Below, in pieces: positions 3,680 through 62,354 of a stretch of 64,000 bases of DNA. The DNA is taken from assembly GCA_035575675.1 (NCBI GenBank), contig DATLXS010000098.1:2641-66640 (forward strand), given 5' to 3'. The notes below the pieces were generated by a model. It did no database searches. It saw nothing but the letters and a program-made list of their open reading frames with translations, and was not told the DNA's origin. The translations under genes and the position numbers were made by a program. The stretch comes from Gemmatimonadales bacterium (GTDB lineage: Bacteria > Gemmatimonadota > Gemmatimonadetes > Gemmatimonadales > GWC2-71-9). Every line of letters starts with the position of its first letter. The first letter of the stretch is position 1.

Positions 3680-4944
3680 CCGCGCCGTCGGCCGCAGACC
3701 TCTCCAAACTCCGAATCAATCGCGACGAGCCACCGCCTGCGGTCAAGCGGGCGCTGGGTCGGGTGCTCTGGTTGGTCGCGGCCGCGGTGGTCATCATCGT
3801 GGTCGTGGTGATCCTCGGCCGCGGCAGCGCGGTGCCGGCACAGGTGGTCACGGTAACGACGGCGGCGGGGGGCGGCGAAGGGGCGGCGAGGGGCGGCAAC
3901 GGCGGCGCCGTTGCTGTGGTCGCCAACGGTTATGTCGTCGCGCGGACCAAGGCTGCGGTTTCGGCGAAGATCCCGGGCCGGCTGGCAATGCTGAATGTCA
4001 GCGAGGGCTCCCGCGTGCAGAAGGGCGACGTCATCGCGCGGCTCGACAACGCGGATTACGCCGCTGCAGTGGGCCAGGCGGAAGCCGAGCTCGCGAGCGC
4101 GAGGGCGACCCTGATCGAAACGCAATCCGATCGTGATCAGCTGCAGCGCGAATTCGTTCGCGCGCGCGACATCCGGGCGCAGAATCCCAATCTCATCTCG
4201 CCCCAGGACGTCGAGAACGCCGACAGTAAGGCGCGCCAGGCAGACGCGCGGGTCAGCGCGCAACAGGCGCGTGTGGATGCCGCGGCCGCGGGACTGCGGG
4301 TCGCCCAGGCGAATCTCGAGAACACCTACATTCGCGCACCGTTCAGCGGGACGGTGCTGCGCAAAGAGGCCGAGGTCGGGGAAGTCGTCGCGCCGTCGGT
4401 GGGCGGCGGCCTGACGCGCGGCGCCGTGGTGACGATGGCCGACCTCGCGACGCTCGAAGTGGAAGTGGACGTCAACGAAGCCTACATCGCGCGGATCCAG
4501 AACGGGCAGGAGGCGCGGATCACGCTCGACGCCTATCCCGACACGGCGTTCCGCGGTACGGTGCGCCAGGTGGTGCCGACCGCGGATCGCCAGCGGGCGA
4601 CGGTGCAGGTGAAGGTCGCGATCGTCGATCGCGACCCGCGCATCCTCACCGAGATGGGCGCGAAGGTCGAGTTCCTCGCGCCACCCCGGCCCGCACAGGT
4701 GGGAGCCGCCCAACCGGTCGAGCGCCCGCGCATCATCGTCCCCGCCGAAGCCGTGCGCAACGCCAACGGCCACGACGTCGTGTGGATCGTCCGCGACGGG
4801 CGGTTACAGAGTCGTGACGTTGACGCAGGTCCGGTCAGCGGTAACTTCCGCGAGATTCGTGCGGGACTTTCGGGCGGCGAGCAGTTACTCGTTGGCGGGA
4901 TTGAAACTCCGCGTGAGGGTCAACGCGTTAAGCTCTCGCAGTAA
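3676..4944 (+). CDS. HlyD/MacA-type periplasmic adaptor (membrane fusion protein)
   Basis: 422 aa. One N-terminal TM (VLWLVAAAVVIIVVVVIL), a long coiled-coil stretch and C-terminal beta-rich domains. GTGA overlap with the ftsH stop. An ABC ATPase and two FtsX-type permeases follow. Confidence 0.85.
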
Positions 4945-4947
4945 TCC

Positions 4948-4975
4948 CCGATAACCGACAACCGATAACCGAGCA
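4948..4975. repeat. heptamer array (4 units) in the adaptor/ATPase intergenic gap
   Basis: CCGATAA CCGACAA CCGATAA CCGAGCA between the stop at 4944 and the ATG at 4982. No inverted partner. Confidence 0.85.
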
Positions 4976-4981
4976 GGGTTC

Positions 4982-5680
4982 ATGGCGCTAGTCGAAATCC
5001 GCGACGTCTACAAGTCATTTCAGCGCGACACCCAAAAGATCGAGGTCTTCACGGGGCTCACCCTCGACATCGAAGCGGGCAGCTTCACCGCGCTGATGGG
5101 ACCGTCGGGGTCGGGCAAGTCGACCCTCCTCAATCTCATCGCGGGGCTCGACAAGCCGACGCGCGGCTCGGTCCGGGTCGCGGGGGCGGCGGTCAGCGAG
5201 ATGTCGGCGGGCCGGCTCGCCGCCTGGCGGTCGAGCAACATCGGGTTCGTGTTCCAGTCGTTCAACCTGCTGCCCGTGCTCACCGCGTATCAGAATGTCG
5301 AGCTCCCGCTGCTGCTCACCCGGTTGTCGGGCAGGGAACGCATCGAGCGTGTGAAGATCGCGCTCGACGTCGTGGGTCTCGCCGACCGCGCCGATCACTA
5401 TCCCCGCCAGCTGTCCGGCGGACAGGAGCAGCGCACCGCCATCGCCCGCGCCATCGTCGCGGATCCGACCGTCATGCTGCTCGATGAGCCGACGGGCCAG
5501 CTCGACGCCAAAAGCTCGCAGGAAGTGCTCGCGCTGCTGCAGCGGCTGAACAACGAGTTCAACAAGACGATCATCATCGTCACGCACGATGCGCATGCCG
5601 CCGAGCGCGCCAAGACGGTTCTGCACCTCGAGAAGGGCGACCTGATCGAGAAGCCGCGCATGGCGGCGGCCGCCCGGTGA
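4982..5680 (+). CDS. ABC transporter ATP-binding protein (MacB/LolD type)
   Basis: 232 aa. Walker A GPSGSGKST, ABC signature LSGGQEQR, Walker B MLLDEPT, H-loop VTHD. Confidence 0.95.
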   Translation: MALVEIRDVYKSFQRDTQKIEVFTGLTLDIEAGSFTALMGPSGSGKSTLLNLIAGLDKPTRGSVRVAGAAVSEMSAGRLAAWRSSNIGFVFQSFNLLPVLTAYQNVELPLLLTRLSGRERIERVKIALDVVGLADRADHYPRQLSGGQEQRTAIARAIVADPTVMLLDEPTGQLDAKSSQEVLALLQRLNNEFNKTIIIVTHDAHAAERAKTVLHLEKGDLIEKPRMAAAAR

Positions 5681-7976: not shown

Positions 7977-9139
7977 AAGTCACCGCGCTCGCCGCGCACA
8001 CACCGGAAGCGGTGCGCGCGGCGCTCGCGGCCCGCGGCTGGGAAGCGCAACCGGCCTGGTTCGCCGCCACCGGCATCCAGCCTCTCGTCGTGCTCATCGA
8101 AGACATCAGCGAACCGGAGCGCGAAGCACTCGTGCATTGGGGCACGAAGTCCGGCGCGGATGTGCTGACCGGTGACGCCTGGGCGCTCGTGGCGGGCGCG
8201 GCGAGCCGCATCGCGCCGCTCGCGCGGTACGACCGCGTACCCGCGGAACTGTCGCGCCTCGCCCCCGAGCTCGGGAAGCTGCTGGGCGCGCGCGCCGAAC
8301 CGGCGCGCACCTGGGCGATTCGCGGCGCCGAGGTGTCGCTCGAAAAGCCGGTGATCATTGGCATCGTCAACGTGACACCCGACTCGTTTTCTGACGGTGG
8401 CCAGCTGCCGACAGCCGATGCGGCGATCGCGCACGGCGAACGCCTGATGGCTGATGGCAGCCGGCTGTTGGACGTGGGCGGTGAATCCACGCGTCCCGGT
8501 GCGGCGGCGGTCCCGGTTTCGGAAGAGATCGCGCGCGTCGTACCGGTGATTCGAGGCCTCGTCCGGCGGGGAATCGGCCCCGTGTCGGTCGACACCCGCA
8601 AGGCCGCAGTCGCGCGGGCCGCGCTGGACGCCGGGGCGGTGATCGTCAACGACGTCTCCGGGCTGCGTTCCGACGCGGCGCTGGCGGGCGCCGTGGGGGA
8701 CGCCCAGGCGGGCGTCATCCTCATGCATATGCGGGGGACGCCGGAGACGATGGACGACCTGGCGACCTACGATCATGTCGCTCCGGAGATCGCCGCGGAG
8801 CTGGCGGCGCTGGCGGAGAAGGCCGAGCGGGCCGGGATTGCGGGCGAGCGGATCGCGGTCGATCCGGGATTCGGGTTTGCCAAGACGGCCACCCAGAATC
8901 TCCGGCTGCTCGACGAACTGGCATCGGTCGTCGCGCTGGGCTATCCTGTAGCGGTCGGCCCGTCGCGCAAGCGGTTTTTGGGTGCCGCGACCGGCCGGCC
9001 CGTGGAGGACCGCGATCGCGCCACGGCCGTCGCTTGCGCCCTCGCCTGGGAGCGGGGGGCGCGGCTGTTCCGGGTGCACGACGCCCGGCTGGCACACGAA
9101 GCCCTTGCACTGGCGAGCGCCACGACCAATCCACCGTGA
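7973..9139 (+). CDS. folP: dihydropteroate synthase with about 105-aa N-terminal extension
   Basis: Core motifs GIVNVTPDSFSDGG, DVGGESTRPGA, SVDT and NDVSG. Listed ORF 7343..9139 trimmed to the GTG at 7973 (GTGA overlap with the permease stop). The region 7973-8290 has strong G/C third-position bias in this frame, so the extension appears to be translated. Confidence 0.85.
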   Translation: MKVTALAAHTPEAVRAALAARGWEAQPAWFAATGIQPLVVLIEDISEPEREALVHWGTKSGADVLTGDAWALVAGAASRIAPLARYDRVPAELSRLAPELGKLLGARAEPARTWAIRGAEVSLEKPVIIGIVNVTPDSFSDGGQLPTADAAIAHGERLMADGSRLLDVGGESTRPGAAAVPVSEEIARVVPVIRGLVRRGIGPVSVDTRKAAVARAALDAGAVIVNDVSGLRSDAALAGAVGDAQAGVILMHMRGTPETMDDLATYDHVAPEIAAELAALAEKAERAGIAGERIAVDPGFGFAKTATQNLRLLDELASVVALGYPVAVGPSRKRFLGAATGRPVEDRDRATAVACALAWERGARLFRVHDARLAHEALALASATTNPP

Positions 9140-19302: not shown

Positions 19303-19822
19303 CGGAAGCCTCGTCTCCGCTCGCTTACTCGTGTTCCGCGTGGGAGCACTGGTGTGCGCCGCCGAGGTGGACCAAGTGCGGGAGATTCTCCCGCGCCTCC
19401 CAACGACGCGTATCCCGGGCGCGCCCCCGGTCGTGGCGGGGCTCGTGAATGTCCGCGGCACTCTGGTGACGGTCGTGGAAGGGTGGCGTGCGCTGGGCCA
19501 GGCACCGCCGGGTCCGCCCGCATCCCCCCCCGCCGAGACGTCCCAGACTCAAGCACCTGAGGCCGCGGGCTCGACGATCATCCTCGAGATGGGCAAGGGT
19601 GAGTCAGGGGCTGGGGCGACCGGAGCGCACGAGGGACAGCTGATCGGGTTTACGGTGGATGAGGTGATGGACATGCTCGCGGGTGGTGCGACGACGCTGG
19701 AGGACCGCACCGGTCTTCCGGGGGTCGATCCCACGCTGGTGCGGGCGGTCGGGCGGCGGAATGGTGAACTGTTCATCGTGTTGGACGTCGCGGCGCTGTT
19801 GGGCCCGATTCTGACTACTTAA
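19295..19822 (+). CDS. cheW: CheW-like coupling protein with Pro/Gly-rich insertion
   Basis: Trimmed to the ATG at 19295. Contains LLVFRVGALVCAAEVDQVREILP...IPGAPPVVAGLVNVRGTLVTVV and a C-terminal FTVDEV...LFIVLDV. Carries an internal low-complexity segment with a C8 run and a G-rich array. Confidence 0.8.
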   Translation: MTDGSLVSARLLVFRVGALVCAAEVDQVREILPRLPTTRIPGAPPVVAGLVNVRGTLVTVVEGWRALGQAPPGPPASPPAETSQTQAPEAAGSTIILEMGKGESGAGATGAHEGQLIGFTVDEVMDMLAGGATTLEDRTGLPGVDPTLVRAVGRRNGELFIVLDVAALLGPILTT

Positions 19823-42925: not shown

Positions 42926-44388
42926 GATCCCTGAAAGAGATTGTGGACGCGCTGGCGCGGGCCGGCGTCCTGGTCGACGCGCCCAATGCGCTGCCGGCGA
43001 TCACGGGCCTGACGGCGGATGCGCGACGCCTCGAGCGCGGCATGCTGTTTTGCGCCGTGCGCGGCGCGGTGCTCGACGGTCACAATTTTGTCGCGGACGC
43101 CGCGGCGCGTGGCGCGGCGGCGGCGGTGGTCGAGTCGCGACAGTCGGTCGGGATTCCTCAGATCGTGGTTCAGGGCGGGGCCGGACGGCGCGCCGCCGCG
43201 CTTGCCGCCGAAACGTGGTATGGCCGGCCGGCGGCACGGCTGCAGCTCGTCGGCGTGACGGGAACGAACGGCAAGACGACGTCGGTCATTCTCGCGCGAC
43301 ACGTGCTGAGCGCCCTGTGGCCGATGGGGGCGATCGGGACGCTCGGCGCGTTCGATCCGGCGGGAGCGCCGGTCGAGAGCGAGGCCGGGAATCTGACGAC
43401 GCCCGGTCCCATCGACCTCCAGGCGACCCTCGCGGCCATGGTCGACCGGGGCGCGGCCGGCGTCGCGATGGAAGTGTCGTCCCACAGTCTCGATCAGGGC
43501 CGCGTCGATGGCCTCGTGTTTCAAGCCGCCATTTTCACCAACCTCACGCGCGACCACCTCGACTATCACGAGACGTTCGAGGCTTACTTCGCGGCCAAAG
43601 CCAGGCTCGTCGGGTATCTCGCCGATGCCGGTCTCGCGGTGATCAACGCGGACGACGCCGCCTGGGCCCGGCTCCCGCGCGCGCCGCGGCGAATCACCTT
43701 TTCCGCCACCGGCCAGACCGCTGACGTGACGGCGCGGGACGTGCGCGTGGATTCCAAAGGAGCGCGCTTCACGCTGGTGACGAAGCAGGGACGTCACGCC
43801 GTGGTGTTGCCGCTGCTCGGGCGGTTCAACGTCGCGAACGCGGTGGGGGTCGCGGCCTGCGCCGTGGGGCTCGCCGTGGAGCCCCGCGTCGTTGCCGAGC
43901 GCCTCTCGACGTCGCCCCAGGTGCCGGGCCGCATGGAGCGGATCGCGGCCGATCCCTGTGTGATTCTGCGCGACTACGCGCACACCCCCGACGCCCTCGA
44001 GCGCGCGCTCGAGACGATCCGCGAAGTGACGTCGTCCCAAGGCCGGGTGATCGTCGTGTTCGGCGCCGGCGGGGACCGCGACCGCGGCAAGCGGGCTCCC
44101 ATGGGGGAAATCGCCGTCCGCCTGGCCGACGTCGCGATCGCGACGTCGGACAATCCGCGGACTGAGGATCCCGAGCGGATTCTGGACGACGTCGAGGCCG
44201 GGATGACGGCGCGGCAGCACTATCGGGTCGTCGATCGGCGCGCGGCCATCGGCCAGGCGCTCGAGCTGGCGCGCCTGGGCGACACGATCCTGCTCGCGGG
44301 CAAGGGCCACGAGACCTATCAGGTCGTCGGCACGACCAAAGAGCCGTTCGACGAGCGGGAAGTGGTCCGCAGCCTGGGGGCGAACTGA
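42922..44388 (+). CDS. murE: UDP-N-acetylmuramoyl-L-alanyl-D-glutamate--2,6-diaminopimelate ligase
   Basis: Listed ORF 42700.. trimmed to the ATG at 42922 (ATGA overlap). Motifs GVTGTNGKTT, MEVSSH, DNPR. Confidence 0.93.
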   Translation: MRSLKEIVDALARAGVLVDAPNALPAITGLTADARRLERGMLFCAVRGAVLDGHNFVADAAARGAAAAVVESRQSVGIPQIVVQGGAGRRAAALAAETWYGRPAARLQLVGVTGTNGKTTSVILARHVLSALWPMGAIGTLGAFDPAGAPVESEAGNLTTPGPIDLQATLAAMVDRGAAGVAMEVSSHSLDQGRVDGLVFQAAIFTNLTRDHLDYHETFEAYFAAKARLVGYLADAGLAVINADDAAWARLPRAPRRITFSATGQTADVTARDVRVDSKGARFTLVTKQGRHAVVLPLLGRFNVANAVGVAACAVGLAVEPRVVAERLSTSPQVPGRMERIAADPCVILRDYAHTPDALERALETIREVTSSQGRVIVVFGAGGDRDRGKRAPMGEIAVRLADVAIATSDNPRTEDPERILDDVEAGMTARQHYRVVDRRAAIGQALELARLGDTILLAGKGHETYQVVGTTKEPFDEREVVRSLGAN

Positions 44389-45765
44389 ATGGGCGGACGG
44401 ACGGACGGTCCGACGGTCGGACGGTCGTGGACCAGCGACGAAGTCGCGGCCGCGCTCGGCGTGCCCTCGCCCGCCAAGCTCCGGTTTTCCGCCATCTCCA
44501 CGGACACCAGACACCTGACACCAGGCACCCTTTTTGTCGCTCTCAAAGGCGACACGTTCGACGCGCACAACTTCCTCGACCAAGCCAGGGCGGGGGGAGC
44601 AACGGCCGCCGTTGTGCGTCGCGGCACGCCCACGGTGGACGGGCTGGCTTTCTTTGAAGTGGACGACACGCTTGTCGCGCTCGGGCTGCTCGCGCGCGCG
44701 CGGCGCCGCATGTTCCCCGACGGGACCCCGGTCGTGGCGATCACCGGATCGAGCGGCAAGACGAGCACCAAGGAGATGATTCGCGCGGCGTTGGGCGCCC
44801 GCTACCGCGTCCATGCGACCGCGGCCAATCTCAACAATCTGATCGGCGTTCCATTGACGATCCTCAGTGCTCCGGAAAACACCGAAGCGCTGGTCGTCGA
44901 GGCGGGGGCGAGCGTGCCGGGCGAGATCGCCCGGCTGCGCGACATCATCGAGCCGACGATCGCCGTGATCACGAACGTCGGCTACGCCCACGTCGAGGGC
45001 TTCGGGTCGCTCGAAGGCGTGATGGCCGAGAAGCTGTCGTTGCTCGATCGCGTGCCCGTGGCCGTGCTTGGCTCCGGGCCCGAAGCGATGTGGCCCGAAG
45101 CGCGCCGCCGGACGCAGGTGATCCCGGCCGCGCTGCATGGCAAGAGCGTCGACGACAGCCTGCTCGACCGCTACCTCGATAAAGACGGGCATCCCCACCT
45201 GTCGCTCGATTCCGGGGAAAAGGTCACCCTGCCGGCGCTTGGCATCCATCAGCTCGAGAATGCCCAGATCGCGCTGGCCGTGGCGCAGCGTGCCGGGGTG
45301 GATCACGACGCCGCGGTGCGGGCGCTCGCCGGGCTCCAGCTGCCGGAGGGGCGGGGTAACGTGCGGGAGATCGGCGACATGGTGGTGATCGACGACACCT
45401 ACAACGCCAACCCCGCCTCGATGCGCCGGGCGGTGCAGACGGCGGACTGGCTGGCACGGCGGCAGCGCCGGCCGCTGGTGGTGGTCGTGGGCACGATGTT
45501 GGAGTTAGGGCCGGAAAGTGCAAGATTGCACGCCGCAGCGGCGCGCGAAATCGCCCAGCGCAAGCCGGCGCTCGTGGCGGCGGTGGGCACGTTTGCGCGG
45601 GTGTTCGAGGGGCAGCGGGAGGCGCTCGGTGGCCGGCTCATTACCGCCGCCGACGCCGACGCGCTCGGCCCGAAGTTGAAATCGGCGTTGCGTGGGAACG
45701 AGCTCGTGTTGCTCAAAGCGTCACGGGGAGTCGCCTTGGAACGTGTCCTCAACTACCTGACCTGA
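44389..45765 (+). CDS. murF: UDP-N-acetylmuramoyl-tripeptide--D-alanyl-D-alanine ligase
   Basis: 458 aa. Motifs ISTDTR, ITGSSGKTSTKEM, DTYNANP. The first 13 codons are encoded by a short-period repeat. Confidence 0.92.
   Translation: MGGRTDGPTVGRSWTSDEVAAALGVPSPAKLRFSAISTDTRHLTPGTLFVALKGDTFDAHNFLDQARAGGATAAVVRRGTPTVDGLAFFEVDDTLVALGLLARARRRMFPDGTPVVAITGSSGKTSTKEMIRAALGARYRVHATAANLNNLIGVPLTILSAPENTEALVVEAGASVPGEIARLRDIIEPTIAVITNVGYAHVEGFGSLEGVMAEKLSLLDRVPVAVLGSGPEAMWPEARRRTQVIPAALHGKSVDDSLLDRYLDKDGHPHLSLDSGEKVTLPALGIHQLENAQIALAVAQRAGVDHDAAVRALAGLQLPEGRGNVREIGDMVVIDDTYNANPASMRRAVQTADWLARRQRRPLVVVVGTMLELGPESARLHAAAAREIAQRKPALVAAVGTFARVFEGQREALGGRLITAADADALGPKLKSALRGNELVLLKASRGVALERVLNYLT
44392..44428. 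repeat. short-period [A/T]CGG array at the murF 5' end
   Basis: GGCGGACGGACGGACGGTCCGACGGTCGGACGGTCGT, with 4-nt period and three 8-nt units GACGGTCC GACGGTCG GACGGTCG. A related array GCCGGACG GCCGGTCG GCCGGACG GTCC lies at 19-46 in tilS. Confidence 0.8.
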
Positions 45766-48300: not shown

Positions 48301-49362
48301 GTGCTGGTCGTGTTCGGTCTCGCCGCGGTGTACGGCGCGTCGAGTCTCGTGACCGTGGCCGGCGGCCAGGTTGGCGCGAGCTTCGCGCTCCGCCAGGCGG
48401 TCGGCGCAGCGGTGGGCGGCTTGCTGGCGATCGTCTTCGCGCGCACCGACTACCATCGCTGGCGGGAGTGGGCCTGGCCGCTGTTGGGCGTCACCATGTT
48501 TCTCCTCGTCATTCCACTGTTGCCGTTCACCCACTTCATCACGCCAACCATCAATGGCGCGCGGCGGTGGGTGAACCTCGGCATCCTCACGCTGCAACCC
48601 TCCGAGCTCGCGAAATTCGCCGTCGTGGTGTGGTGCGCGATGCTGGCCGCCAAGAAGGGGGAACAGCTGCGTGACTTCAAGCACGGCGTGCTTCCGTTTG
48701 TCGTCATTCTCGGGCCCGTCATCGGGCTCATTTTCCTCGAGCCCCATCTCTCCATGGCGCTGCTGGTCGCCCTCCTCGCGGGCAGCGTGCTGTTCACGGC
48801 CGGCGCGCGGATCGGGCACTTCCTCGTACTGGGCGCGGCGGCGGGACCGCTGCTGTTCGGCGCGGTGGCGACCGCGCAGTACCGGCTCGCGCGCGTCCTC
48901 ACGTTCCTGAATCCCGGCGCCGCCCCGGCGGAAGCCACGTGGCAAGTGCAACAGTCGCTCACCGGCATCGGGGCCGGGCAGCTGCTCGGCGCGGGATTCG
49001 GACAGGGCCAGCAGAAGCTCGGCTACCTGCCGTACGCGTATTCCGATTTCATCTTCTCCACGATCGGCGAGGAGTGGGGCTTCCTGGGCGTCCTGGCGAT
49101 CGCGCTGCTGTTCGGCACGTTCGTGTGGCTCGGGTTCCGCATCGCGCGCAACGCCCCCGATCTGTTTGGGCAGCTGCTGGCGACCGGCATCAGCGTGATG
49201 GTCGGACTGAGCGTCGTCGTGCACATGGGCGTGAGTCTCGCCGTCATTCCCGCCACGGGAGTCACGCTGCCGTTCATGTCGTATGGGCGGTCCTCGCTCA
49301 TTGTTGCGCTGGCGGCGACGGGTGTGTTGGCGAGTGTTGGGAGAGCGAGGAGGACTACGTGA
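48301..49362 (+). CDS. ftsW: SEDS-family peptidoglycan glycosyltransferase FtsW
   Basis: 353 aa from the first canonical start (GTG 48301). Multi-TM protein with SDFIFS and PFMSYGGSS-like motifs. Family-like N-terminal sequence (AWEGRLLAVVTA) continues upstream in frame without ATG/GTG/TTG, so the true start may be non-canonical. Confidence 0.85.
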   Translation: MLVVFGLAAVYGASSLVTVAGGQVGASFALRQAVGAAVGGLLAIVFARTDYHRWREWAWPLLGVTMFLLVIPLLPFTHFITPTINGARRWVNLGILTLQPSELAKFAVVVWCAMLAAKKGEQLRDFKHGVLPFVVILGPVIGLIFLEPHLSMALLVALLAGSVLFTAGARIGHFLVLGAAAGPLLFGAVATAQYRLARVLTFLNPGAAPAEATWQVQQSLTGIGAGQLLGAGFGQGQQKLGYLPYAYSDFIFSTIGEEWGFLGVLAIALLFGTFVWLGFRIARNAPDLFGQLLATGISVMVGLSVVVHMGVSLAVIPATGVTLPFMSYGRSSLIVALAATGVLASVGRARRTT

Positions 49363-49363
49363 A

Positions 49364-49440
49364 GAACGCGGAACGCGGAACTCGGAAGTCGGAACAGTGT
49401 CTTTGATGTTCGTTCCACGTTCGGCGTTCCGCGTTCCGCG
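49364..49440. repeat. inverted heptamer-array hairpin between ftsW and murG
   Basis: Left arm GAACGCG GAACGCG GAACTCG GAAGTCG GAAC. Right arm GTTC GTTCCAC GTTCGGC GTTCCGC GTTCCGC G. The outer 15 bp pair perfectly. Flanked by CGTGAAGA at 49358-49365 and 49443-49450. Confidence 0.9.
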
Positions 49441-49443
49441 GTC

Positions 49444-50529
49444 GTGAAGATCCTCATCGCCGGCGGCGGTACTGGCGGCCACCTCATGCCGGCGCTCGCA
49501 CTGGCGCGCGTGGCCACTGAACTCGGTCACGAGGTTGTGCTCGTCGGCGCGACCCGCGGCATCGAAGCCCAGATCCTGCCGCGCCATCCATTTCGATTTC
49601 TGCTCCTGCCGCTGGAGCCGATCTACCGGCGCGCGTGGTGGCGCAACCTGCGCTGGCCGGTGATCGCCGTGCGGGCGTGGCGCGCTGCGGGTCGCGTCCT
49701 GAGGGACGAGCGTCCGGCGATCGTCATCGGCACCGGCGGTTACGCGGCGGGGCCCGTGCTGTGGCGCGCGCAAAACGCCGGGATTCCGACGGCGCTCCAA
49801 GAACAGAACGCGTTCCCGGGACTCACACAACGATTGCTCTCACGGCGCGCGCAACAAGTGCACCTCGGATTTCCGGAAGCGCGGCTTCGCCTGTCGCCCG
49901 GACCGCGCACCAAGGTGTTCGTCTTCGGCAATCCGATCACGCCACCGGGCCGAGTGGATGCCGCCGCCGCACGCGGCGAGGTTGGTCTCACCGCGTTGCG
50001 GCGCACGCTGCTCGTATTTGGCGGGAGTCAGGGCGCGCGCGCGTTGAACGAGACGATCGCGCGCACGCTGCAACGCGGCTTGCTCGGCGACGTGAATCTG
50101 TTGTGGGGAACGGGGACGATGCACCTGGATCGGTACGCGTCGCTCGCGGTGCCCGGCCGAGTCGTCGTGCGCGGCTTCTTCGATCCGATCGGCCCGGCGT
50201 ACGCCGCCGCGCACCTCGTCGTCGCGCGCGCGGGCGCGATGACGGTGTCCGAGCTGTGCGCCTGGGCGAAGCCCAGCGTCCTGGTGCCGTTGCCCACGGC
50301 AGCGGCGGATCACCAAACCTTCAACGCCCGAGCGCTTGCAAACGCCGGCGCGAGCGTCTTGCTGCTCGAGCGGGAGCTCACCCCGGAGGGTTTTGCAAAA
50401 ACGGTCGGCGGGCTGATTCAGGACGACAAACGCCTGGATGCCCTGGCCCGGAGTGCCCGGGGCAGGGGTCACCCGAACGCCGCCCGAACCATCATGGAAA
50501 AGGTTTTAGAGCTTTCGCAAGTTGCGTAG
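49444..50529 (+). CDS. murG: undecaprenyldiphospho-muramoylpentapeptide beta-N-acetylglucosaminyltransferase
   Basis: 361 aa. N-terminal IAGGGTGGHLMPALA, plus GGSQGA and C-terminal ADHQTFNA. Confidence 0.94.
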   Translation: MKILIAGGGTGGHLMPALALARVATELGHEVVLVGATRGIEAQILPRHPFRFLLLPLEPIYRRAWWRNLRWPVIAVRAWRAAGRVLRDERPAIVIGTGGYAAGPVLWRAQNAGIPTALQEQNAFPGLTQRLLSRRAQQVHLGFPEARLRLSPGPRTKVFVFGNPITPPGRVDAAAARGEVGLTALRRTLLVFGGSQGARALNETIARTLQRGLLGDVNLLWGTGTMHLDRYASLAVPGRVVVRGFFDPIGPAYAAAHLVVARAGAMTVSELCAWAKPSVLVPLPTAAADHQTFNARALANAGASVLLLERELTPEGFAKTVGGLIQDDKRLDALARSARGRGHPNAARTIMEKVLELSQVA

Positions 50530-50553: not shown

Positions 50554-51963
50554 ATGACCTTGTTTCGAACCGGGGATCCCCGACCTATCCATCTCATGGG
50601 CATAGCCGGGGCGGGGATGAGCGCCTTGGCTCTTATTGCCAGGCACCGGGGCGTCGCCATAACTGGTTGTGATTCAGACACTTCCGGGACAGGCGTTGAT
50701 GACCTGACCGCGCTGGGAGTTCCCGTTTGGAAGGGCCACGATCCGAGCCATGTGGAAGGGGCTCGGGCAGTTGTAGTTACGGCCGCGGTCCCACGGGATC
50801 ATCCGGAGCTGCTCAAGGCCCGTGCCTTGGGTCTGTCGGTCGTGCGTCGCGCGGATGCACTGGGCGAGCTGGTCGCTGGCGGAAAAGAGGGCGTCGTGGC
50901 GGTCGCCGGGACACACGGCAAGACGACCACCACGGTCATGGTCACTGAGGCTCTCACGGCCGCCAGGCGGAATCCCACGGGACTCGCCGGCGGCCGTGTC
51001 GCAGCGTGGGGCGGCAACGCCCGGATCGGCGGCGACGACTTGTTCGTCGTCGAGGCCGATGAGTACGACAAGGCCTTTTTGTCGCTGACGCCCAAGATCG
51101 CGGTGGTGAACAACGTCGAGGCCGATCATCTCGAGTGCTACGGCAGCATGGAGGCGCTCGAGGCTGCGTTCGTCGAGTTCGCGAGTCGCGCGGAGCGGGT
51201 GATCATCGGCGCGGACGACGCGGGAGCGGACCGGGTGGCGTTGCACGTGACGGCGCCGGTGTGGCGGGTGGGTCACGGTGCCACGGCGGATGTGCGGATT
51301 CGCGCGGTGCGGCTCGAGCCTGGTGGCTCGCGCGCGATGATCGCGCTGCCGGGCGGGCACACGATCGATCTGGCGTTGGCCGTGCCGGGATTGCACAACG
51401 TGCGCAACGCCGCCGCCGCGCTCGCGGTGTTGCAGGCGCTCGGGGCGGATGTGCAGGCGGGCGCGCAGGCGCTGGCGGAGTTTCGCGGCGTTGGCCGGCG
51501 GTTCGAGCGGTTGGGGGAAGCGGGAGGAGTGACTGTGGTGGATGACTACGCGCACCACCCGACGGAAGTCAGCGCGACGCTCGCAGCGGCGCGGCAAGCG
51601 TTCCCCGGGCGCCGGGTGATCGCCGTGTTTCAGCCGCACCTGTTTTCGCGGACGGCGTTGCACGGCGAAGCGCTCGGCAAGGCGCTCGCGGCGGCGGACG
51701 TGGTCGTCGTCGCGCCGATCTATGCGGCGCGCGAGCAGCCGCAGGACGGCGTGACGCACCATCTGGTGGTGCGCGGCGCGACACGCGCCGGCGCGGCGAC
51801 CGTGGCGGTGCGCGATCGCGCCACGCTGACGAATCACGTCGCGCGCGCGGTGCGCGAAGGCGACGTCGTGTTCACGCTCGGCGCCGGCGACATCACGCGC
51901 GTGGGACCCGAGCTGCTGAGTCGGCTCGGAGCGGGGAACGGGAAGAACGGAGCAGTCGCATGA
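50554..51963 (+). CDS. murC: UDP-N-acetylmuramate--L-alanine ligase
   Basis: 469 aa. Motifs GIAGAGMSALA, VAGTHGKTTTT, DDYAHHPTE. Confidence 0.94.
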   Translation: MTLFRTGDPRPIHLMGIAGAGMSALALIARHRGVAITGCDSDTSGTGVDDLTALGVPVWKGHDPSHVEGARAVVVTAAVPRDHPELLKARALGLSVVRRADALGELVAGGKEGVVAVAGTHGKTTTTVMVTEALTAARRNPTGLAGGRVAAWGGNARIGGDDLFVVEADEYDKAFLSLTPKIAVVNNVEADHLECYGSMEALEAAFVEFASRAERVIIGADDAGADRVALHVTAPVWRVGHGATADVRIRAVRLEPGGSRAMIALPGGHTIDLALAVPGLHNVRNAAAALAVLQALGADVQAGAQALAEFRGVGRRFERLGEAGGVTVVDDYAHHPTEVSATLAAARQAFPGRRVIAVFQPHLFSRTALHGEALGKALAAADVVVVAPIYAAREQPQDGVTHHLVVRGATRAGAATVAVRDRATLTNHVARAVREGDVVFTLGAGDITRVGPELLSRLGAGNGKNGAVA

Positions 51964-55139: not shown

Positions 55140-56410
55140 TGGTCTGGCGAGCGAGTCATTACGTTGCGGCCGGCGTGCTCGCCGCCGGCATGCTCGGGTG
55201 GGCTGCACACGAAGCGTGGTCGTCGCGGCAGATTCCCGTCGCGCTGCCGCTTGTCGTGACCAGTGCCTATGACGAGTGGGCCGATACGCTCGGCCGCCGC
55301 GAGATGTTGTCCGACGTGCTGGAGCGGGCGGGGATCAGCGGCCGCGAGTACGTCGCGTTCATGAAAGCCACGCACGTCCTGAATCCCCGGCGCATGCAGC
55401 CGGGACTCATCTTCGAAATGCGGCGTTTGAAGGGGACGACCGTCGCCAATCGGTTGGGCGTCCGGCTCGATCCCGAGCGGCACCTGCTGATGAATCGCCG
55501 CGGCGGCGACTCGGGGTGGGTCGAGGCCGTCGAAGACATCCCGTGGACGACCGAGCGGCTGCGCACCACCGCGGTCATTCAATCAAACCTGTACGACGCC
55601 CTCGACGCCGCGATTCCGGATTCTTTCCTTCCCATGCGCCAGCGTGTTGCCCTGGCCTGGGCCATCGCCGACGTCTACGACTGGGAAGTGGACTTCACGC
55701 GCGACCTGCGTCCGGGCGACCGCGTCGAGGTATTGCTCGAGCGGCTGCAGTCGCCCGAAGGCGAGCGGCGCTTCGGCCGGATCCTCGCGGCGCGCGTCGA
55801 TGTCGCAGGATCGCCGAGCTTCGCGTTTGCCTACCAGAACGGTTTCTTCGACGATCGCGGCCGATCGTTGCGCCGAGCGTTTCTGCGGGCGCCGCTGCGC
55901 TTCAGCCACATCTCGAGCCGCTTCGGCAACCGCTTCCATCCCATTCTCAAGCGCTGGCGGTCGCACCAGGGGACCGACTACGCGGCAGCGTATGGGACCC
56001 CGGTCCGCGCCACCGCTGATGGGATCGTCACGGAAGCGGGTCGAAACGGCGGCTACGGCAACCTGGTGGAAATCCGGCACGCCAACGGCATCCGCACCCG
56101 GTACGGTCATCTTTCGAAATTCGCGAAGGGGTTGCATGCGGGGGACCGCATCAAGCAGGAGCAGGTCATCGGTTACGTGGGAGCGACCGGTCTCGCGACC
56201 GGTCCGCACCTCCATTACGAGTTTCTCGTGAATGGCCGGCCCACGAACCCGCAGCGCAAGGACGCCGGGGCCGGTGAGCCCGTGCCGTCGAAGTTGAAGT
56301 CGCAGTTCGACGATGTGCGTGTGCAGCTCCTGGCGGAGCTCGAGCCGACCGGTATTCCGTCCGCGGCGGCGGCGCTCGGCAATGCGGCCGCTCCGGCGCG
56401 CGACGACTAG
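55139..56410 (+). CDS. M23 family metallopeptidase (murein endopeptidase-like)
   Basis: 423 aa. N-terminal TM, HQGTDYAA, GNLVEIRHANGIRTRYGHL, GATGLATGPHLHYEF. Confidence 0.9.
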   Translation: MVWRASHYVAAGVLAAGMLGWAAHEAWSSRQIPVALPLVVTSAYDEWADTLGRREMLSDVLERAGISGREYVAFMKATHVLNPRRMQPGLIFEMRRLKGTTVANRLGVRLDPERHLLMNRRGGDSGWVEAVEDIPWTTERLRTTAVIQSNLYDALDAAIPDSFLPMRQRVALAWAIADVYDWEVDFTRDLRPGDRVEVLLERLQSPEGERRFGRILAARVDVAGSPSFAFAYQNGFFDDRGRSLRRAFLRAPLRFSHISSRFGNRFHPILKRWRSHQGTDYAAAYGTPVRATADGIVTEAGRNGGYGNLVEIRHANGIRTRYGHLSKFAKGLHAGDRIKQEQVIGYVGATGLATGPHLHYEFLVNGRPTNPQRKDAGAGEPVPSKLKSQFDDVRVQLLAELEPTGIPSAAAALGNAAAPARDD

Positions 56411-56437
56411 CCACCACCCTCCTTACCGACACATCGC

Positions 56438-57142: not shown

Positions 57143-58875
57143 CGCTGCGAATCATCGCCGTGCTGGCGCTGATCCTCCTGCTGTGGAATCCTGCCAGCTC
57201 GCGGCTGCTTCCCGCGGGCGATCAACCGATCGTGCTGCTCGACGGCTCGCTCAGCATGTCGGGATCGCCGTGGCACGCGGCGCTCGACAGCGCGCGGCGC
57301 TACGCGCGCGGGCGGGCGGTCGTCTGGCGCTTCGGTACCGGCGTCGCGTCGTTCGACACCACGGCGCCGACCGCGGGTGCGAGCCACCTCGGTCCGGCGC
57401 TCGAGGCCGCCGCGGGGCGGGCCGGTGAAGTCGTGGTCGTCACGGATGGAAATGTCGATGACCTGGCCGGCATTCCGCCCGATCTGCTGCGCCGGCCGCG
57501 CGTGATTCTCGCGCCGCGACCTGCATTCTTCGATGCGTACGTTGCGGCCGTCGCAGGGCCGAGGCATGTGACGCGAAGCGATACCATCCGGCTCAGGGTG
57601 AGCTACGGGACGGCGGGGACGAGGGACGGGGGAAGGGGGACGGGTAAGGCGACGCTAACGGTGTCGGTTGAAGGCCACCGGCTTGCGTCCGTCCCGGTAA
57701 TTCTGCCCGACAGTGGAGTCCTAAATACGGAGGTCACCCTTCCCGCGTCCCACGTCCCCCGTCCCGGTTGGATCGCACTCGACGTCCACCTTGATGGTGT
57801 GAACGACACGGAGTCTCGAGACGACACTCGCGCGTTCGTGATCGACGTGAGCCTCGAGCCCGCCGCGGTCCTGTTCGCGTCGCCGCCCGACTGGGACGCG
57901 CGGTTCCTCGCCCGCACCATGGCCGACGTCGCGCGTGTACCGGTCAAGGTGTTCGTCGAGACGGAAGCGGGCCGCTGGCGTGACGGCGCCACGCTGGCGC
58001 CGGTTGCGACGGCCGATCTAACGCGTGCGGCGGCGAACGCCCGCCTCGTGATCGCGACGGGTGAGCCGGGGCGGGCGCGGGCGTTTACCACCGATTCCCG
58101 CAGCGCGTTGCTGCTGTGGCCAACCACCGGGCAAACGGGCGATTGGTACGTGGAGCGGCCGGTGTCCTCACCCTTCACGGCCGCGCTTGCGGGCGTGGCG
58201 TGGGATTCACTTCCGCCTGCGACCGCCGTCACGATGCAAGTGCGCGACTCTGGGTCCGCCGCGACCGTCGCGCTGGCGGCGCGACTGGCGCGTCGCGGGG
58301 CGGCGCGCCCGATCGTGATCCTCGAGCAGCACGGCAGTCAGCGCGTCGCGACGGTCACCGCCGCCGGATTGTGGCGCTGGGCCTTCCGCGGCGGGGCCGC
58401 CGAGGAAGCCTATCGGAATGTGGTGGCGGCGATGGTGGACTGGCTATTGGGAGACGAGGGACGGGGGACGAGGGAGCGGGTCGTTCCGCAGATGTATGAA
58501 GTCCCGAATGGCATGCCCACGGTGTGGCGCTGGGCGGCCGCTGATTCTGCGCGGTCAATGGCGATCACATTGCGCACTCGCGACACGACGCGCCTCGACA
58601 CGCTGCGGTTCGATGCGGCGGGCCGCGCCGAGCTGCTCCTGCCACCCGGCGTCTATCGCTACGCCTTGAGTGGCGGCACGGAGCAGGGCGTCATCGCGGT
58701 CGAGACGTACTCCGATGAATGGTTGCCGCGTGCGCCGGCGCTCAGCGCTCAGCCGGGCGAGGCGACGGAGCGCTCGAGCACGGTGGGCCTGCGCGACCGC
58801 TGGTGGCTGTTCGCGATCGCGCTCGCGGCCCTCGCCACGGAATGGGCGCTGCGACGCCGCCAGGGCCTGCCGTAA
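57130..58875 (+). CDS. membrane protein with vWA-like N-terminal region, unknown function
   Basis: 581 aa. N-terminal TM (LRIIAVLALILLLW), IVLLDGSLSM (MIDAS-like) and a C-terminal TM (WWLFAIALAALATEWAL). Contains three heptamer arrays. Confidence 0.65.
   Translation: MPLVTLRIIAVLALILLLWNPASSRLLPAGDQPIVLLDGSLSMSGSPWHAALDSARRYARGRAVVWRFGTGVASFDTTAPTAGASHLGPALEAAAGRAGEVVVVTDGNVDDLAGIPPDLLRRPRVILAPRPAFFDAYVAAVAGPRHVTRSDTIRLRVSYGTAGTRDGGRGTGKATLTVSVEGHRLASVPVILPDSGVLNTEVTLPASHVPRPGWIALDVHLDGVNDTESRDDTRAFVIDVSLEPAAVLFASPPDWDARFLARTMADVARVPVKVFVETEAGRWRDGATLAPVATADLTRAAANARLVIATGEPGRARAFTTDSRSALLLWPTTGQTGDWYVERPVSSPFTAALAGVAWDSLPPATAVTMQVRDSGSAATVALAARLARRGAARPIVILEQHGSQRVATVTAAGLWRWAFRGGAAEEAYRNVVAAMVDWLLGDEGRGTRERVVPQMYEVPNGMPTVWRWAAADSARSMAITLRTRDTTRLDTLRFDAAGRAELLLPPGVYRYALSGGTEQGVIAVETYSDEWLPRAPALSAQPGEATERSSTVGLRDRWWLFAIALAALATEWALRRRQGLP
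57607..57648. repeat. heptamer array (6 units), GGGGGAC type
   Basis: GGGACGG CGGGGAC GAGGGAC GGGGGAA GGGGGAC GGGTAAG inside CDS 57130..58875. Confidence 0.85.
57733..57767. repeat. heptamer array (5 units), GTCCCCC type (reverse complement of 57607..57648)
   Basis: GTCACCC TTCCCGC GTCCCAC GTCCCCC GTCCCGG, 84 nt downstream of the G-rich array in the same ORF. Confidence 0.85.
58449..58476. repeat. heptamer array (4 units), GGGGGAC type
   Basis: GGGAGAC GAGGGAC GGGGGAC GAGGGAG in the same ORF as the 57.6 kb arrays. Confidence 0.85.
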
Positions 58876-61790: not shown

Positions 61791-61854
61791 GGTGTCAGGT
61801 GTCTGGTGTCTGGTGTCAGATGTTTCTGACACCAGGAACCTGACACCCGACACC
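61791..61854. repeat. inverted heptamer-array hairpin in the convergent gap
   Basis: GGTGTCA GGTGTCT GGTGTCT GGTGTCAG, loop ATGTTT, CTGACAC CAGGAAC CTGACAC CCGACACC. Fills the 67-nt gap between the recG stop and the stop of the minus-strand gene. No U-tract. Confidence 0.9.
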
Positions 61855-62354
61855 TAGAACGGGACCCGCACCCCAACCTGCATCGGAGCAAAGGGAATAT
61901 TCCCCGGCCCTTCCCCCGGATGCAGATCAATAATGAAGAGAGCAGTCGTCGCCAGGAGGCTCGCCTGCGCGCCGAGCAGCCAGCGATTGGCTCGCCGGTC
62001 GTACGCGCGCGAGCGCTGATAGAGCTGCTCCGCGTCGCTGCGGATGTAGCGGCCGTCAGTACCCAGCGCGCAGGCGTCCTGCGCCGACCGGCAGACGTCG
62101 AGCAGGGCATTCCACTCGCGCCGTGAGTTGGTGTGCTGCTTCTCCGCGAAGACTATCAAGGCCCCCACACTCGCCGCAGTGAGCCATTTTCCGGTGTGCA
62201 CGACGGCGCGTTGGAACGATGCACGTTGGTCATCGGTCGTCAGTCGTCGGTTCTCAGTACCGATGACCGATGACCGATGACCGATCGCCTGGCTACGTAG
62301 CGAGGGCGCGAGGCCGCAACACAGCATCGCAACGAGAATCGTCGAGCGTCTCAT
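61854..62354 (-). CDS. secreted/membrane protein of unknown function
   Basis: Listed ORF trimmed to the Met at 62354 (MRRSTILVAMLCCGLAPSLRSQA signal peptide), which makes an ATGA overlap with the upstream BamB-like stop. A heptamer hairpin is translated in frame after the signal peptide. Confidence 0.6.
   Translation of the reverse strand: MRRSTILVAMLCCGLAPSLRSQAIGHRSSVIGTENRRLTTDDQRASFQRAVVHTGKWLTAASVGALIVFAEKQHTNSRREWNALLDVCRSAQDACALGTDGRYIRSDAEQLYQRSRAYDRRANRWLLGAQASLLATTALFIIDLHPGEGPGNIPFAPMQVGVRVPF
62227..62284. repeat. inverted heptamer-array hairpin inside a CDS
   Basis: GGTCATC GGTCGTC AGTCGTC GGT, loop TCTCAGT, ACC GATGACC GATGACC GATGACC GAT. About 24 bp pair, with the mismatches being G-U compatible. 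Confidence 0.9.

What the first reader, a model, noticed from the sequence alone, without database searches (positions are those of the whole stretch)
49358..49450. 85-nt inverted heptamer element sitting exactly in the ftsW/murG GTGA overlap, flanked by an 8-bp direct repeat
Seen: CGTGAAGA occurs at 49358-49365, where it contains the ftsW stop TGA, and again at 49443-49450, where it contains the murG start GTG. Between the two copies lies a hairpin of GAACGCG-type heptamers with its inverted copy; the outer 15 bp pair perfectly. Deleting one repeat copy plus the element (85 nt) restores ...ACGTGAAGATCC..., in which the ftsW stop and the murG start overlap as GTGA. That is the junction type used by most neighbouring genes.

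Inference: this looks like an insertion or duplication event with a target-site duplication, placed in the middle of an essential operon without damaging either ORF. It may now act as an internal attenuator, processing site or stabiliser within the dcw transcript.
Basis: partly seen in the sequence, partly recalled or inferred. Interest (0 to 1): 0.65.

Follow-up and report, generated by a model that had tools for sequence, protein, structure and literature searches.

The report
Heptamer-repeat hairpin splitting ftsW/murG overlap
An 80-base hairpin built from 7-base repeats sits exactly where two essential cell-wall genes of a soil Gemmatimonadota bacterium once overlapped by four bases. It is one copy of a genome-wide palindromic repeat family, and related species have an empty site or quite different hairpins at this spot, so it looks like a fast-changing tolerated passenger rather than a dedicated regulator.

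Summary
CGTGAAGA flanks an 80-nt hairpin (-53 kcal/mol, z -4.75) between the ftsW stop and the murG start.

The predicted empty site exists. Basal species of the same genus read GCGTGAAGAT with a GTGA overlap, and almost all outgroup genomes of the order have NTGA overlaps.

The element is not a one-off.
- The genome holds about 17 copies of the same GGAACGC-arm family.
- It holds 79 inverted short-unit array pairs in all.
- One sibling copy with the same arms carries a PF05635 "23S rRNA IVS protein" gene, and 12 of the 13 such genes here are bracketed the same way.

Among 27 congeneric species the junction is pristine or scarred-empty in 7. In the other 20 it is filled by hairpins of five or more unit types. 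Unit type ignores phylogeny, and sister genomes 95-97% identical carry different ones, with flank divergence typical of recombinational import.

Flanking duplications are not a class feature. Here, the duplicated junction is what keeps both ORFs intact.

There is no terminator, promoter or Rfam match. Across the genome's hairpins, the mRNA-sense strand does not fold better than the antisense strand. No RNase III gene is detectable in this bacterial class.

Best reading: a tolerated palindromic repeat whose stem base holds stop and start together. Any regulatory role is untested.

The parts
48301..49362 (+). ftsW (FtsW/RodA/SpoVE family). The stop TGA is at 49360-49362. The true start may lie upstream of 48301.
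   Evidence: ORF list. Pfam PF01098, E 5.5e-86.
49347..49353 (+). Shine-Dalgarno-like GAGGAGG, 5 nt upstream of the left (vestigial) GTG. It is made from the rare Arg codons AGG AGG in the FtsW tail.
   Evidence: Read from the sequence. Function is inferred.
49358..49365 (+). Left copy of the duplicated junction, CGTGAAGA. It contains the vestigial murG-type start GTG (49359-49361) and the ftsW stop TGA. Its last three bases are also the start of the first heptamer.
   Evidence: The ancestral form GCGTGAAGAT is seen in L025 and L027.
49363..49397 (+). Left (G-rich) arm: five heptamers, AGAACGC GGAACGC GGAACTC GGAAGTC GGAACAG.
   Evidence: The same arm design occurs at about 17 loci of the genome.
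49398..49411 (.). Core/loop TGTCTTTGATGTTC. It is nearly identical in the orthologous allele of L005 and holds the TGA that ends the 15-codon ORF.
49412..49442 (+). Right (C-rich) arm: GTTCCAC GTTCGGC GTTCCGC GTTCCGC, then GGT. It is the inverted copy of the left arm.
49443..49450 (+). Right copy of the duplicated junction, CGTGAAGA. It contains the working murG start GTG at 49444-49446.
49444..50529 (+). murG (glycosyltransferase family 28).
   Evidence: Pfam PF03033 and PF04101. Relatives are 70-96% identical.
49359..49406 (+). 15-codon ORF (MKNAERGTRKSEQCL*). It starts at the vestigial GTG, runs through the left arm and stops in the loop. The same ORF is present in L005.
   Evidence: Read. 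Whether it is translated is unknown.

Best explanation
The spacer is one copy of a dispersed family of palindromic repeats whose two arms are inverted tandem arrays of a 7-nt unit, here GGAACGC. The G-rich array is on the 5' side on either strand, and the core between the arms is variable.

Origin (shown by comparison):
- Within this genus, such a hairpin entered the ancestral ftsW/murG GTGA stop/start overlap.
- The junction (G)CGTGA(AGA) ended up on both sides. The left copy still supplies the ftsW stop and the right copy the murG start.
- Since then the insert has changed quickly. Units turn over in both arms together, arrays expand, and deletions leave scars.
- Whole alleles, with about 25 nt of ftsW and 10-18 nt of murG, move between species by homologous recombination.

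Function (inferred):
- In the dcw mRNA the element folds into a stem of about 30 bp. The base of that stem holds the ftsW stop and the SD-less murG start side by side.
- A ribosome finishing ftsW, or one starting at the vestigial SD+GTG, melts the left arm and frees the murG start. Translational coupling therefore survives.
- On this reading the element is a tolerated, probably near-neutral passenger. It is hard to lose cleanly, because only deletions that keep a stop and a start are viable.
- It is not a terminator or a dedicated regulator.

The process that makes new copies is unknown.
For: Family membership:
- GGAACGCGGAAC arms recur at about 17 loci, always as AACGC(GGAACNN)x4 ... (NNGTTCC)x4GCGTT, with cores of 12-370 nt.
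- The genome has 79 inverted array pairs against 7 direct pairs. Periods 7 and 8 dominate, and the G-richer arm is 5' in 66 of 79.
- A sibling copy with the same arms (C205:42910-43332) encloses a PF05635 gene (E 5e-16). Of the 13 PF05635 genes in the genome, 12 are bracketed by inverted arrays.

Insertion into an overlap:
- GTGA overlaps are intact in L025, L027 and G005, and NTGA overlaps are usual in the outgroup families.
- All occupied alleles keep GC[GA]T[GA][AG] on the left and C[GAT]TGAAG on the right.
- L005 carries the orthologous element with CATGA(R)GA on both sides.
- L003 has a different, REP-type insert at the same spot with AGCGTGA duplicated.

Turnover and exchange:
- Unit type needs 16 changes on the flank tree, against a shuffled mean of 17.3.
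- The sister pairs L001/L002 (95% identical) and L015/L016 (97%) carry different units, and mismatch density jumps next to the element.
- Alleles with GGAATGC and GGATTGC arms share a homologous core, and L006 mixes both units.
- Along 61 kb colinear with G030, most hypervariable spots are array loci with swapped units.

Against a dedicated function:
- There is no terminator, promoter or Rfam match.
- Sense and antisense folding do not differ over 44 hairpins, p 0.46.

Stem geometry: the stop and the start lie in or at the stem base in most alleles.
Against: - No expression data could be obtained, so neutrality and retained coupling are inferences.
- Occupancy of 20 of 27 species at one junction is far above the genome-wide density. 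That could reflect selection for a hairpin here rather than a ratchet or a target preference.
- The copying mechanism is unknown. The family shows no regular flanking duplication and there is no associated transposase. No reverse transcriptase was found, though the MAG is only 81% complete.
- In some alleles the unit resembles the local ftsW tail (CGTGCGG). That would also fit growth in place.
- In this particular copy, 5 G-U pairs occur in the sense fold against 1 in the antisense fold. This hints weakly at RNA-level constraint.
Confidence: 0.65

Rival explanations
1. A hairpin between ftsW and murG is selected for its effect on the dcw transcript. It could set the FtsW:MurG ratio by hiding the murG start, protect the upstream mRNA 3' end, or act as a processing or attenuation site. 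Any stable hairpin will do, which is why different families fill the slot.
For: - 20 of 27 congeneric species carry a hairpin at this one junction, of five or more unit types plus a REP type. Other junctions in the same 4-kb loci rarely do.
- The murG start is paired or at the stem base in most alleles and has no SD of its own.
- Arm complementarity is kept while units change.
- This copy has 5 sense against 1 antisense G-U pairs.
Against: - Pristine overlaps, deletion scars and hairpins of 61-172 nt all exist in otherwise similar species.
- Outgroups lack it.
- There is no U-tract terminator.
- There is no sense-strand bias across 44 hairpins.
- The same elements sit at unrelated loci, including inside ORFs.
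- No RNase III domain is detectable to cut such a stem.
Confidence: 0.2
2. The arrays grew in place. Local sequence at the junction was amplified by slippage and fold-back copying into two inverted arrays, and no foreign element was inserted.
For: - In the GTGCGGC and GTGCGTG alleles, the unit matches the adjoining ftsW tail codons (..TCTCGTGCG..), and the short-gap sites L007 and L020 contain one such unit.
- Units change in concert in both arms, and L006 is a mixture.
- L033 shows a plain 46-nt tandem duplication of the junction.
Against: - The own arms match a family with fixed termini (AACGC...GCGTT) and fixed arm length at about 17 unrelated loci, including a gene-bearing cassette.
- The same unit families recur genome-wide and across species.
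- The short-gap sites can equally be deletion scars.
Confidence: 0.1
3. It is a classical miniature inverted-repeat transposable element (MITE), moved by a transposase that makes an 8-bp target-site duplication.
For: - Inverted terminal arms and an exact 8-bp direct repeat flank this copy.
- The orthologous copy in L005 has a 7-of-8 repeat.
Against: - Flanking repeats of the genome's inverted array pairs are no longer than in mismatched controls.
- Cores are unrelated between copies.
- The gene-bearing relatives carry a four-helix-bundle gene, not a transposase.
- The only Y1 transposase is flanked by a different REP.
Confidence: 0.04

Closest known systems
G-rich heptameric repeats of Xanthomonas (GGGAATC) and Nostoc (GGGGAYT), Rehm et al. 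2015 (PMC4692102)
   Same: - Tandem 7-nt units.
- Many sites form convergent pairs on opposite strands (70-75 per Xanthomonas genome).
- About 90% are intergenic and lie close to the end of the upstream ORF (mean 28 nt).
- They vary between related species.
   Different: - Here one genome uses ten or more different units, most without a GGG tract, so G-quadruplex formation is not general.
- Arms are a fixed 4-5 units long.
- The same arms bracket PF05635 genes.
- This copy sits inside a split stop/start overlap of an essential operon.
23S rRNA intervening sequences carrying an S23p/PF05635 ORF (Coxiella burnetii IVS, PMC4990558)
   Same: - It is an insert bordered by terminal inverted repeats that form a stem of about 28 bp in the host transcript.
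- The loop may carry a PF05635 gene. Here, a sibling copy with the same arms does.
   Different: - It is not in rRNA, and this copy has no ORF.
- IVS stems are cut by RNase III, but no RNase III domain is detectable in this lineage.
- The arms here are heptamer arrays. I did not check whether IVS stems are.
REP / REPIN elements mobilised by RAYT (Y1) transposases (from general knowledge)
   Same: - Short palindromic repeats occur in many copies, mostly just after genes.
- Inverted doublets form long hairpins.
- They are tolerated inside operons.
   Different: - The only Y1_Tnp gene here is flanked by a different REP (GAGCCCTTCAGGGCTC type), not by heptamer arrays.
- That REP type does occur at this same junction in L003.
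MITEs such as Neisseria Correia elements (from general knowledge)
   Same: It is a small non-coding element with inverted ends, found between co-transcribed genes, and it can affect mRNA processing.
   Different: - There is no regular target-site duplication.
- There is no conserved interior.
- There is no related transposase-bearing element.

Membership tests
Heptamer-array hairpins (convergent heptameric SSR pairs, Rehm 2015 type) | Arms are tandem arrays of a 7-nt unit. | tested here: met
   Five units on the left and four on the right.
Heptamer-array hairpins (convergent heptameric SSR pairs, Rehm 2015 type) | Two arrays lie in convergent (inverted) orientation, with the G-rich array 5' on each strand. 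| tested here: met
   GGAACNN arm, then NNGTTCC arm. The G-richer arm is 5' in 66 of 79 pairs genome-wide.
Heptamer-array hairpins (convergent heptameric SSR pairs, Rehm 2015 type) | Many dispersed copies, mostly at gene ends. | tested here: met
   About 17 loci of this unit and 79 pairs in all. Many start 0-10 nt after a stop codon.
Heptamer-array hairpins (convergent heptameric SSR pairs, Rehm 2015 type) | The unit carries a G-tract able to form a G-quadruplex. | tested here: not met
   GGAACGC has only GG.
PF05635-bearing hairpin cassette / rRNA IVS | A PF05635 (S23p) gene lies between the arms. | tested here: not met
   This copy has a 14-nt core. A sibling with the same arms at C205:42910-43332 carries the gene.
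PF05635-bearing hairpin cassette / rRNA IVS | Located in helix 25 or helix 45 of 23S rRNA. | tested here: not met
   It lies between ftsW and murG.
PF05635-bearing hairpin cassette / rRNA IVS | The stem is excised by RNase III. | not testable with these tools
   No RNA data were available. PF14622 and PF00636 are absent from 59 of 61 genomes of the order.
MITE | Target-site duplication of fixed length at every copy. | tested here: not met
   Present here (8 bp), but the flanking-repeat length distribution of the genome's inverted array pairs equals the control.
MITE | A related autonomous element encodes a transposase. | tested here: not met
   The gene-bearing relatives carry PF05635, not a transposase.
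REP/REPIN | The cognate RAYT gene is flanked by the same repeat. | tested here: not met
   The single Y1_Tnp gene (C253:8881-9222) is flanked by a different palindrome.
Intrinsic terminator | A GC-rich stem is followed by a U-tract. | tested here: not met
   The stem is followed by GGTCGTGAAGATCC, and the scan found 0 terminator-like sites.
Any Rfam family | Match to a covariance model at the gathering score. | tested here: not met
   Only chance-level miRNA hits, E 0.2-0.9 and far below gathering scores.

The most novel reading that the evidence does not exclude
Hairpins with tandem-unit arms may be a distinct, self-copying class of bacterial palindromic DNA, with these features:
- New copies are templated from arrays already in the genome.
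- The G-rich array ends up 5' on both strands, as if the two 3' ends of a break were extended with G-rich units and then joined.
- PF05635 four-helix-bundle genes are the gene-bearing form and possibly the trans-acting factor.
- Stop/start overlaps such as ftsW/murG act as traps. A copy can be swapped there but rarely removed.
- The spread into essential operons in this bacterial class is made harmless by the apparent class-wide loss of RNase III.
Probability: 0.2. Interest if true: 0.8.

Novelty: new variant of a known kind. Interest (0 to 1): 0.5.

Why it matters
This junction gives an unusually clean natural series for a poorly understood repeat class. One genus shows the untouched GTGA overlap, five or more hairpin types, deletion scars, and allele replacement between genomes that are 95-97% identical.

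It shows three things:
- An essential, translationally coupled gene pair can absorb a 30-bp-stem palindrome, because the stop/start junction is duplicated.
- Arm units evolve in concert in both arms.
- These hairpins share their arms with PF05635 ("IVS protein") cassettes.

It also provides ready-made constructs (empty, occupied and scarred alleles) to test whether such hairpins keep, tune or break translational coupling.

The side observation that this class of Gemmatimonadota lacks a recognisable RNase III may explain why such stems are tolerated. It deserves its own check.

Tried and rejected
- Second example in the own genome: a GGAACGC hairpin sits between a thioesterase gene and a patatin-like gene at C36:1397-1496, with TGA on the left and ATG on the right. 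I looked for its empty site in relatives. The gene is a divergent paralogue, and the one likely orthologue (G003) carries a different small hairpin, so it gave no answer.
- Target-site duplication as a family hallmark: rejected.
- RAYT/REPIN mobilisation: rejected, because the only Y1 transposase has its own, different REP.
- Retro-element route: no RVT_1 domain was found, but the MAG is only 81% complete.
- Known RNA family, terminator or promoter: none found.
- IVS-like RNase III excision as the mode of action here: undermined by the absence of RNase III domains in the lineage.
- Link between RNase III loss and PF05635 copy number: not seen, because PF05635 is multi-copy in both rnc-positive and rnc-negative lineages.
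- RNA-level selection on the mRNA strand across the class: not detected.
- A concatenated-flank query against G030 was prepared but dropped. Fetching the colinear contig directly was used instead.
Full report
**1. What is in the sequence**

The window reads ...GAGGAGGACTACGTGA AGAACGC GGAACGC GGAACTC GGAAGTC GGAACAG TGTCTTTGATGTTC GTTCCAC GTTCGGC GTTCCGC GTTCCGC GGTC GTGAAGATCC....
- The ftsW ORF ends at TGA 49360-49362, and murG starts at GTG 49444. Both identities are confirmed by Pfam.
- CGTGAAGA occurs at 49358-49365 and at 49443-49450.
- The outer 15 bp of the arms pair perfectly.
- The RNA fold is -53.4 kcal/mol, z -4.75, and no shuffle of 200 is as stable.
- There is no terminator-like tail, no promoter-like site and no Rfam family.

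**2. It is a member of a genome-wide class**

The window itself holds other heptamer hairpins with other units: GGTGTCW at 61791-61855, CCGATGA at 62229-62285, and GGGGACG at 57607-57767.

The whole assembly is a Gemmatimonadota MAG of 3.5 Mb, 81% complete.
- The motif GGAACGCGGAAC marks about 17 loci. All are built the same way: AACGC(GGAACNN)x4, a variable core of 12-370 nt, then (NNGTTCC)x4GCGTT.
- Tandem arrays of period 7 and 8 are over-represented: 108 and 100 arrays at TRF score 40 or more, against 27 for period 6 and 53 for period 9.
- There are 79 inverted array pairs against 7 direct pairs.
- The G-richer array is on the 5' side in 66 of 79.
- Spacer lengths fall into two groups: 130 nt or less (60 pairs) and 200-700 nt (19 pairs).
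- Many short hairpins begin 0-10 nt after a stop codon. About a third lie inside ORFs, by a crude gene call.

**3. Link to PF05635 cassettes, tested here**

Earlier notes of this scan suggested the link, so I tested it on this genome.
- The long-spacer copy with the same GGAACGC arms (C205:42910-43332) encodes a 145-aa protein that matches PF05635, 23S_rRNA_IVP (E 5.4e-16).
- A GGTGTCT-armed copy (C211) does too (E 5.5e-35).
- The genome has 13 PF05635 matches. Twelve are bracketed by inverted short-unit arrays, each with its own unit.

The ftsW/murG element is thus the gene-less counterpart of such a cassette.

The Coxiella IVS, which carries a gene of this family, is bordered by inverted repeats forming a 28-bp stem that RNase III cuts (PMC4990558). 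Convergent heptamer repeat pairs close to upstream gene ends are described in Xanthomonas (PMC4692102).

**4. The empty site exists**

MurG was found in 56 of 61 related genomes. I read the ftsW/murG junction in 27 congeneric species and in 20 further genomes; 18 of those could be read, 17 from outgroup families and one more congener (G005).
- Outgroup families almost always have NTGA overlaps or gaps of 0-22 nt.
- Basal members of the genus read GCGTGAAGATT (L025), GCGTGAAGATC (L027) and GGTGAGG (G005).

In the crown of the genus, 20 of 27 species carry a hairpin of 61-172 nt at this spot:
- GGAACGC units: own, L005, L015.
- GGAATGC or GAAATGC units: L002, L012, L017, L010.
- GGATTGC units: L004, L006, L011, L016.
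- GTGCGGC units: L008, L009, L018, L023, L024, L030.
- GTGCGTG units: L022, L026.
- A REP-type compound hairpin: L003.

L020, L021 and probably L007 look like deletion scars. They keep the outer tail of a right arm, for example L021 GCATAA-ttctatctc-GTG against L010 ...ccgcaattctttgtc-GTG.

**5. The duplicated junction**
- All occupied alleles keep a descendant of GCGTGA at the ftsW stop (GC[GA]T[GA][AG]) and C[GAT]TGAAG at the murG start.
- The repeat is 8 of 8 in the own genome and 7 of 8 in the orthologous L005 allele (CATGAGGA / CATGAAGA). L005 has the same core, differing at one base.
- It is ACGTGAA in L023 and AGCGTGA around the unrelated REP-type insert of L003.
- G030 has the same REP type in another ATGA overlap that is intact in the own genome (window about 34730), again with CATGA on both sides.
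- Genome-wide, however, flanking repeats of the array pairs are no longer than in mismatched-locus controls, and the ftsW/murG 8-mer is the longest.

I conclude that the duplication is real here but is not a signature of the family. Either the break at this site happened to be staggered, or only events that regenerate both a stop and a start survive in an essential overlap.

**6. Turnover and exchange**
- On a maximum-likelihood tree of the flanking ftsW and murG DNA, the unit type needs 16 changes. The minimum is 6 and the shuffled mean is 17.3.
- The sister pairs L001/L002 (about 95% identical) and L015/L016 (about 97%) carry different units.
- In both pairs, mismatches jump from 3-4% to about 40% in the last 25 nt of ftsW, mostly as synonymous changes in the GRARR codons. 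They are also raised in the first 10-18 nt of murG. This is what import of a foreign allele by homologous recombination would give.
- Alleles of one type in distant species (L002 and L012) are about 90% identical, core included.
- The GGAATGC and GGATTGC alleles share a homologous core (..GGTTCGA..N12-16..CTTCGACC..), and L006 mixes both units in both arms. So units also change in place, in both arms together.
- Along 61 kb colinear between the own contig and G030 (94-97% identical), most of the 15 hypervariable spots are array loci with swapped units. One of them forms the first 12 codons of murF.

**7. How it probably works in the transcript (inference)**
- In the own allele and in most others, the minimum-energy structure puts the ftsW stop and the murG start in or at the base of the stem.
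- murG has no SD of its own. The SD-like GAGGAGG lies before the left, vestigial GTG. That GTG opens a 15-codon ORF running through the left arm to a TGA in the loop.
- A ribosome ending ftsW or translating this short ORF would open the stem and expose the murG start. The insert would then preserve coupling rather than break it.
- Over 44 hairpins with known transcription direction, the sense strand is not folded better than the antisense strand (25 against 18, Wilcoxon p 0.46; G-U pairs 105 against 82). This fits a DNA-level palindrome better than an RNA element shaped by selection.
- RNase III domains (PF14622, PF00636) are absent from the own MAG and from 59 of 61 genomes of the order. Within the phylum they are essentially confined to other classes. 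An IVS-like excision of the stem is therefore unlikely here, which may be why such stems are harmless.

**8. Alternatives**
- A selected regulatory hairpin remains possible, because occupancy at this one junction is very high. I give it about 0.2.
- Growth in place from local sequence is suggested by units that resemble the ftsW tail. But the fixed family termini at 17 loci argue for copying from elsewhere.
- A classical MITE or a REPIN is rejected on tested features.
- No reverse transcriptase was found.

**9. Limits**
- The gene calls used for context are crude.
- All genomes are MAGs or unnamed representatives.
- Earlier notes of this scan served as leads. They report the same class in many Gemmatimonadota, and insertions at ftsW/murG in several phyla. 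Only the points re-tested above are used as evidence.

Noticed in passing
whole genome G000 and relatives (no window coordinates): No RNase III catalytic domain (PF14622, PF00636) is found in the own MAG or in 59 of 61 genomes of the order, many of them 98-100% complete. In a draw of 151 genomes from the phylum, hits (E about 1e-33) are confined to 14 genomes of other classes plus one genome of the own class. This suggests a class-wide loss of rnc. I found nothing on it in the papers searched.
   Followed up: partly
window 49347-49406: The left copy of the duplicated junction keeps a strong SD-like GAGGAGG and a GTG. Together they open a 15-codon ORF (MKNAERGTRKSEQCL*) that runs through the left arm and ends in the loop. 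The same ORF is in the L005 allele. In L023, the left GTG is in frame with murG through the whole hairpin, with no stop.
   Followed up: partly
window 44503-44529: The conserved MurF motif TDTRHLTPGT is written as GACACCAGACACCTGACACCAGGCACC. That is four units of the genome's commonest heptamer family (GGTGTCW), and it uses the rare codons AGA, ACA and CCA.
   Followed up: no
window 44379-44435: The first 12 or so codons of murF are built from a short-unit array. In the 95%-identical genome G030 they are replaced by a different array: CGGACGG-type here, GGGGCTC-type there.
   Followed up: partly
window 51900-51963; L003, L008, L009, L013, L016, L022 at about +2483 to +2529 from the murG start: The C-terminal tail of MurC, just before the murC/ftsQ NTGA overlap, carries a one-armed, translated GGGAGCR heptamer array of 3-4 units in most congeners. 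It is degenerate in the own genome.
   Followed up: partly
window 4904-5000, 57594-57751, 58437-58588, 56386-56432, 8151-8205, 19587-19652: These are further array loci that differ between the own genome and G030, by a swap of unit family or by gain or loss of units. Elsewhere the flanks are 94-97% identical.
   Followed up: partly
window about 34730 (own: intact CCGATGAAGG overlap); G030:C28:39216-39307: G030 has a 90-nt REP-type insert (GTGTCCTTAAGGACA and CCCACCCTTGAGGGTGGG hairpins) in an ATGA overlap, with CATGA on both sides. The same REP type flanks the only Y1 transposase gene of the own genome (C253:8881-9222), and it fills the ftsW/murG junction of L003.
   Followed up: partly
G000 C100:86712-86785: This is a copy of the same GGAACGC family. 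On its minus strand, an intact ATGA stop/start overlap lies in the loop. Both arms are translated, as the tail of the upstream gene (..RNAERGTRNV*) and the head of the downstream gene (MIRLRSAFRVPSSAL..).
   Followed up: partly
G000 C205:40542-40839: GGAACGC arms 250 nt apart bracket the start and the first 85 or so codons of a radical-SAM (HemW-like) gene. The inner arm is read in frame (..FRVPRSDF..).
   Followed up: no
L033 (G042:C205:13800-14450): In an outgroup genome, the ftsW/murG junction carries a plain 46-nt tandem duplication of the ftsW tail plus the overlap, not a hairpin.
   Followed up: no
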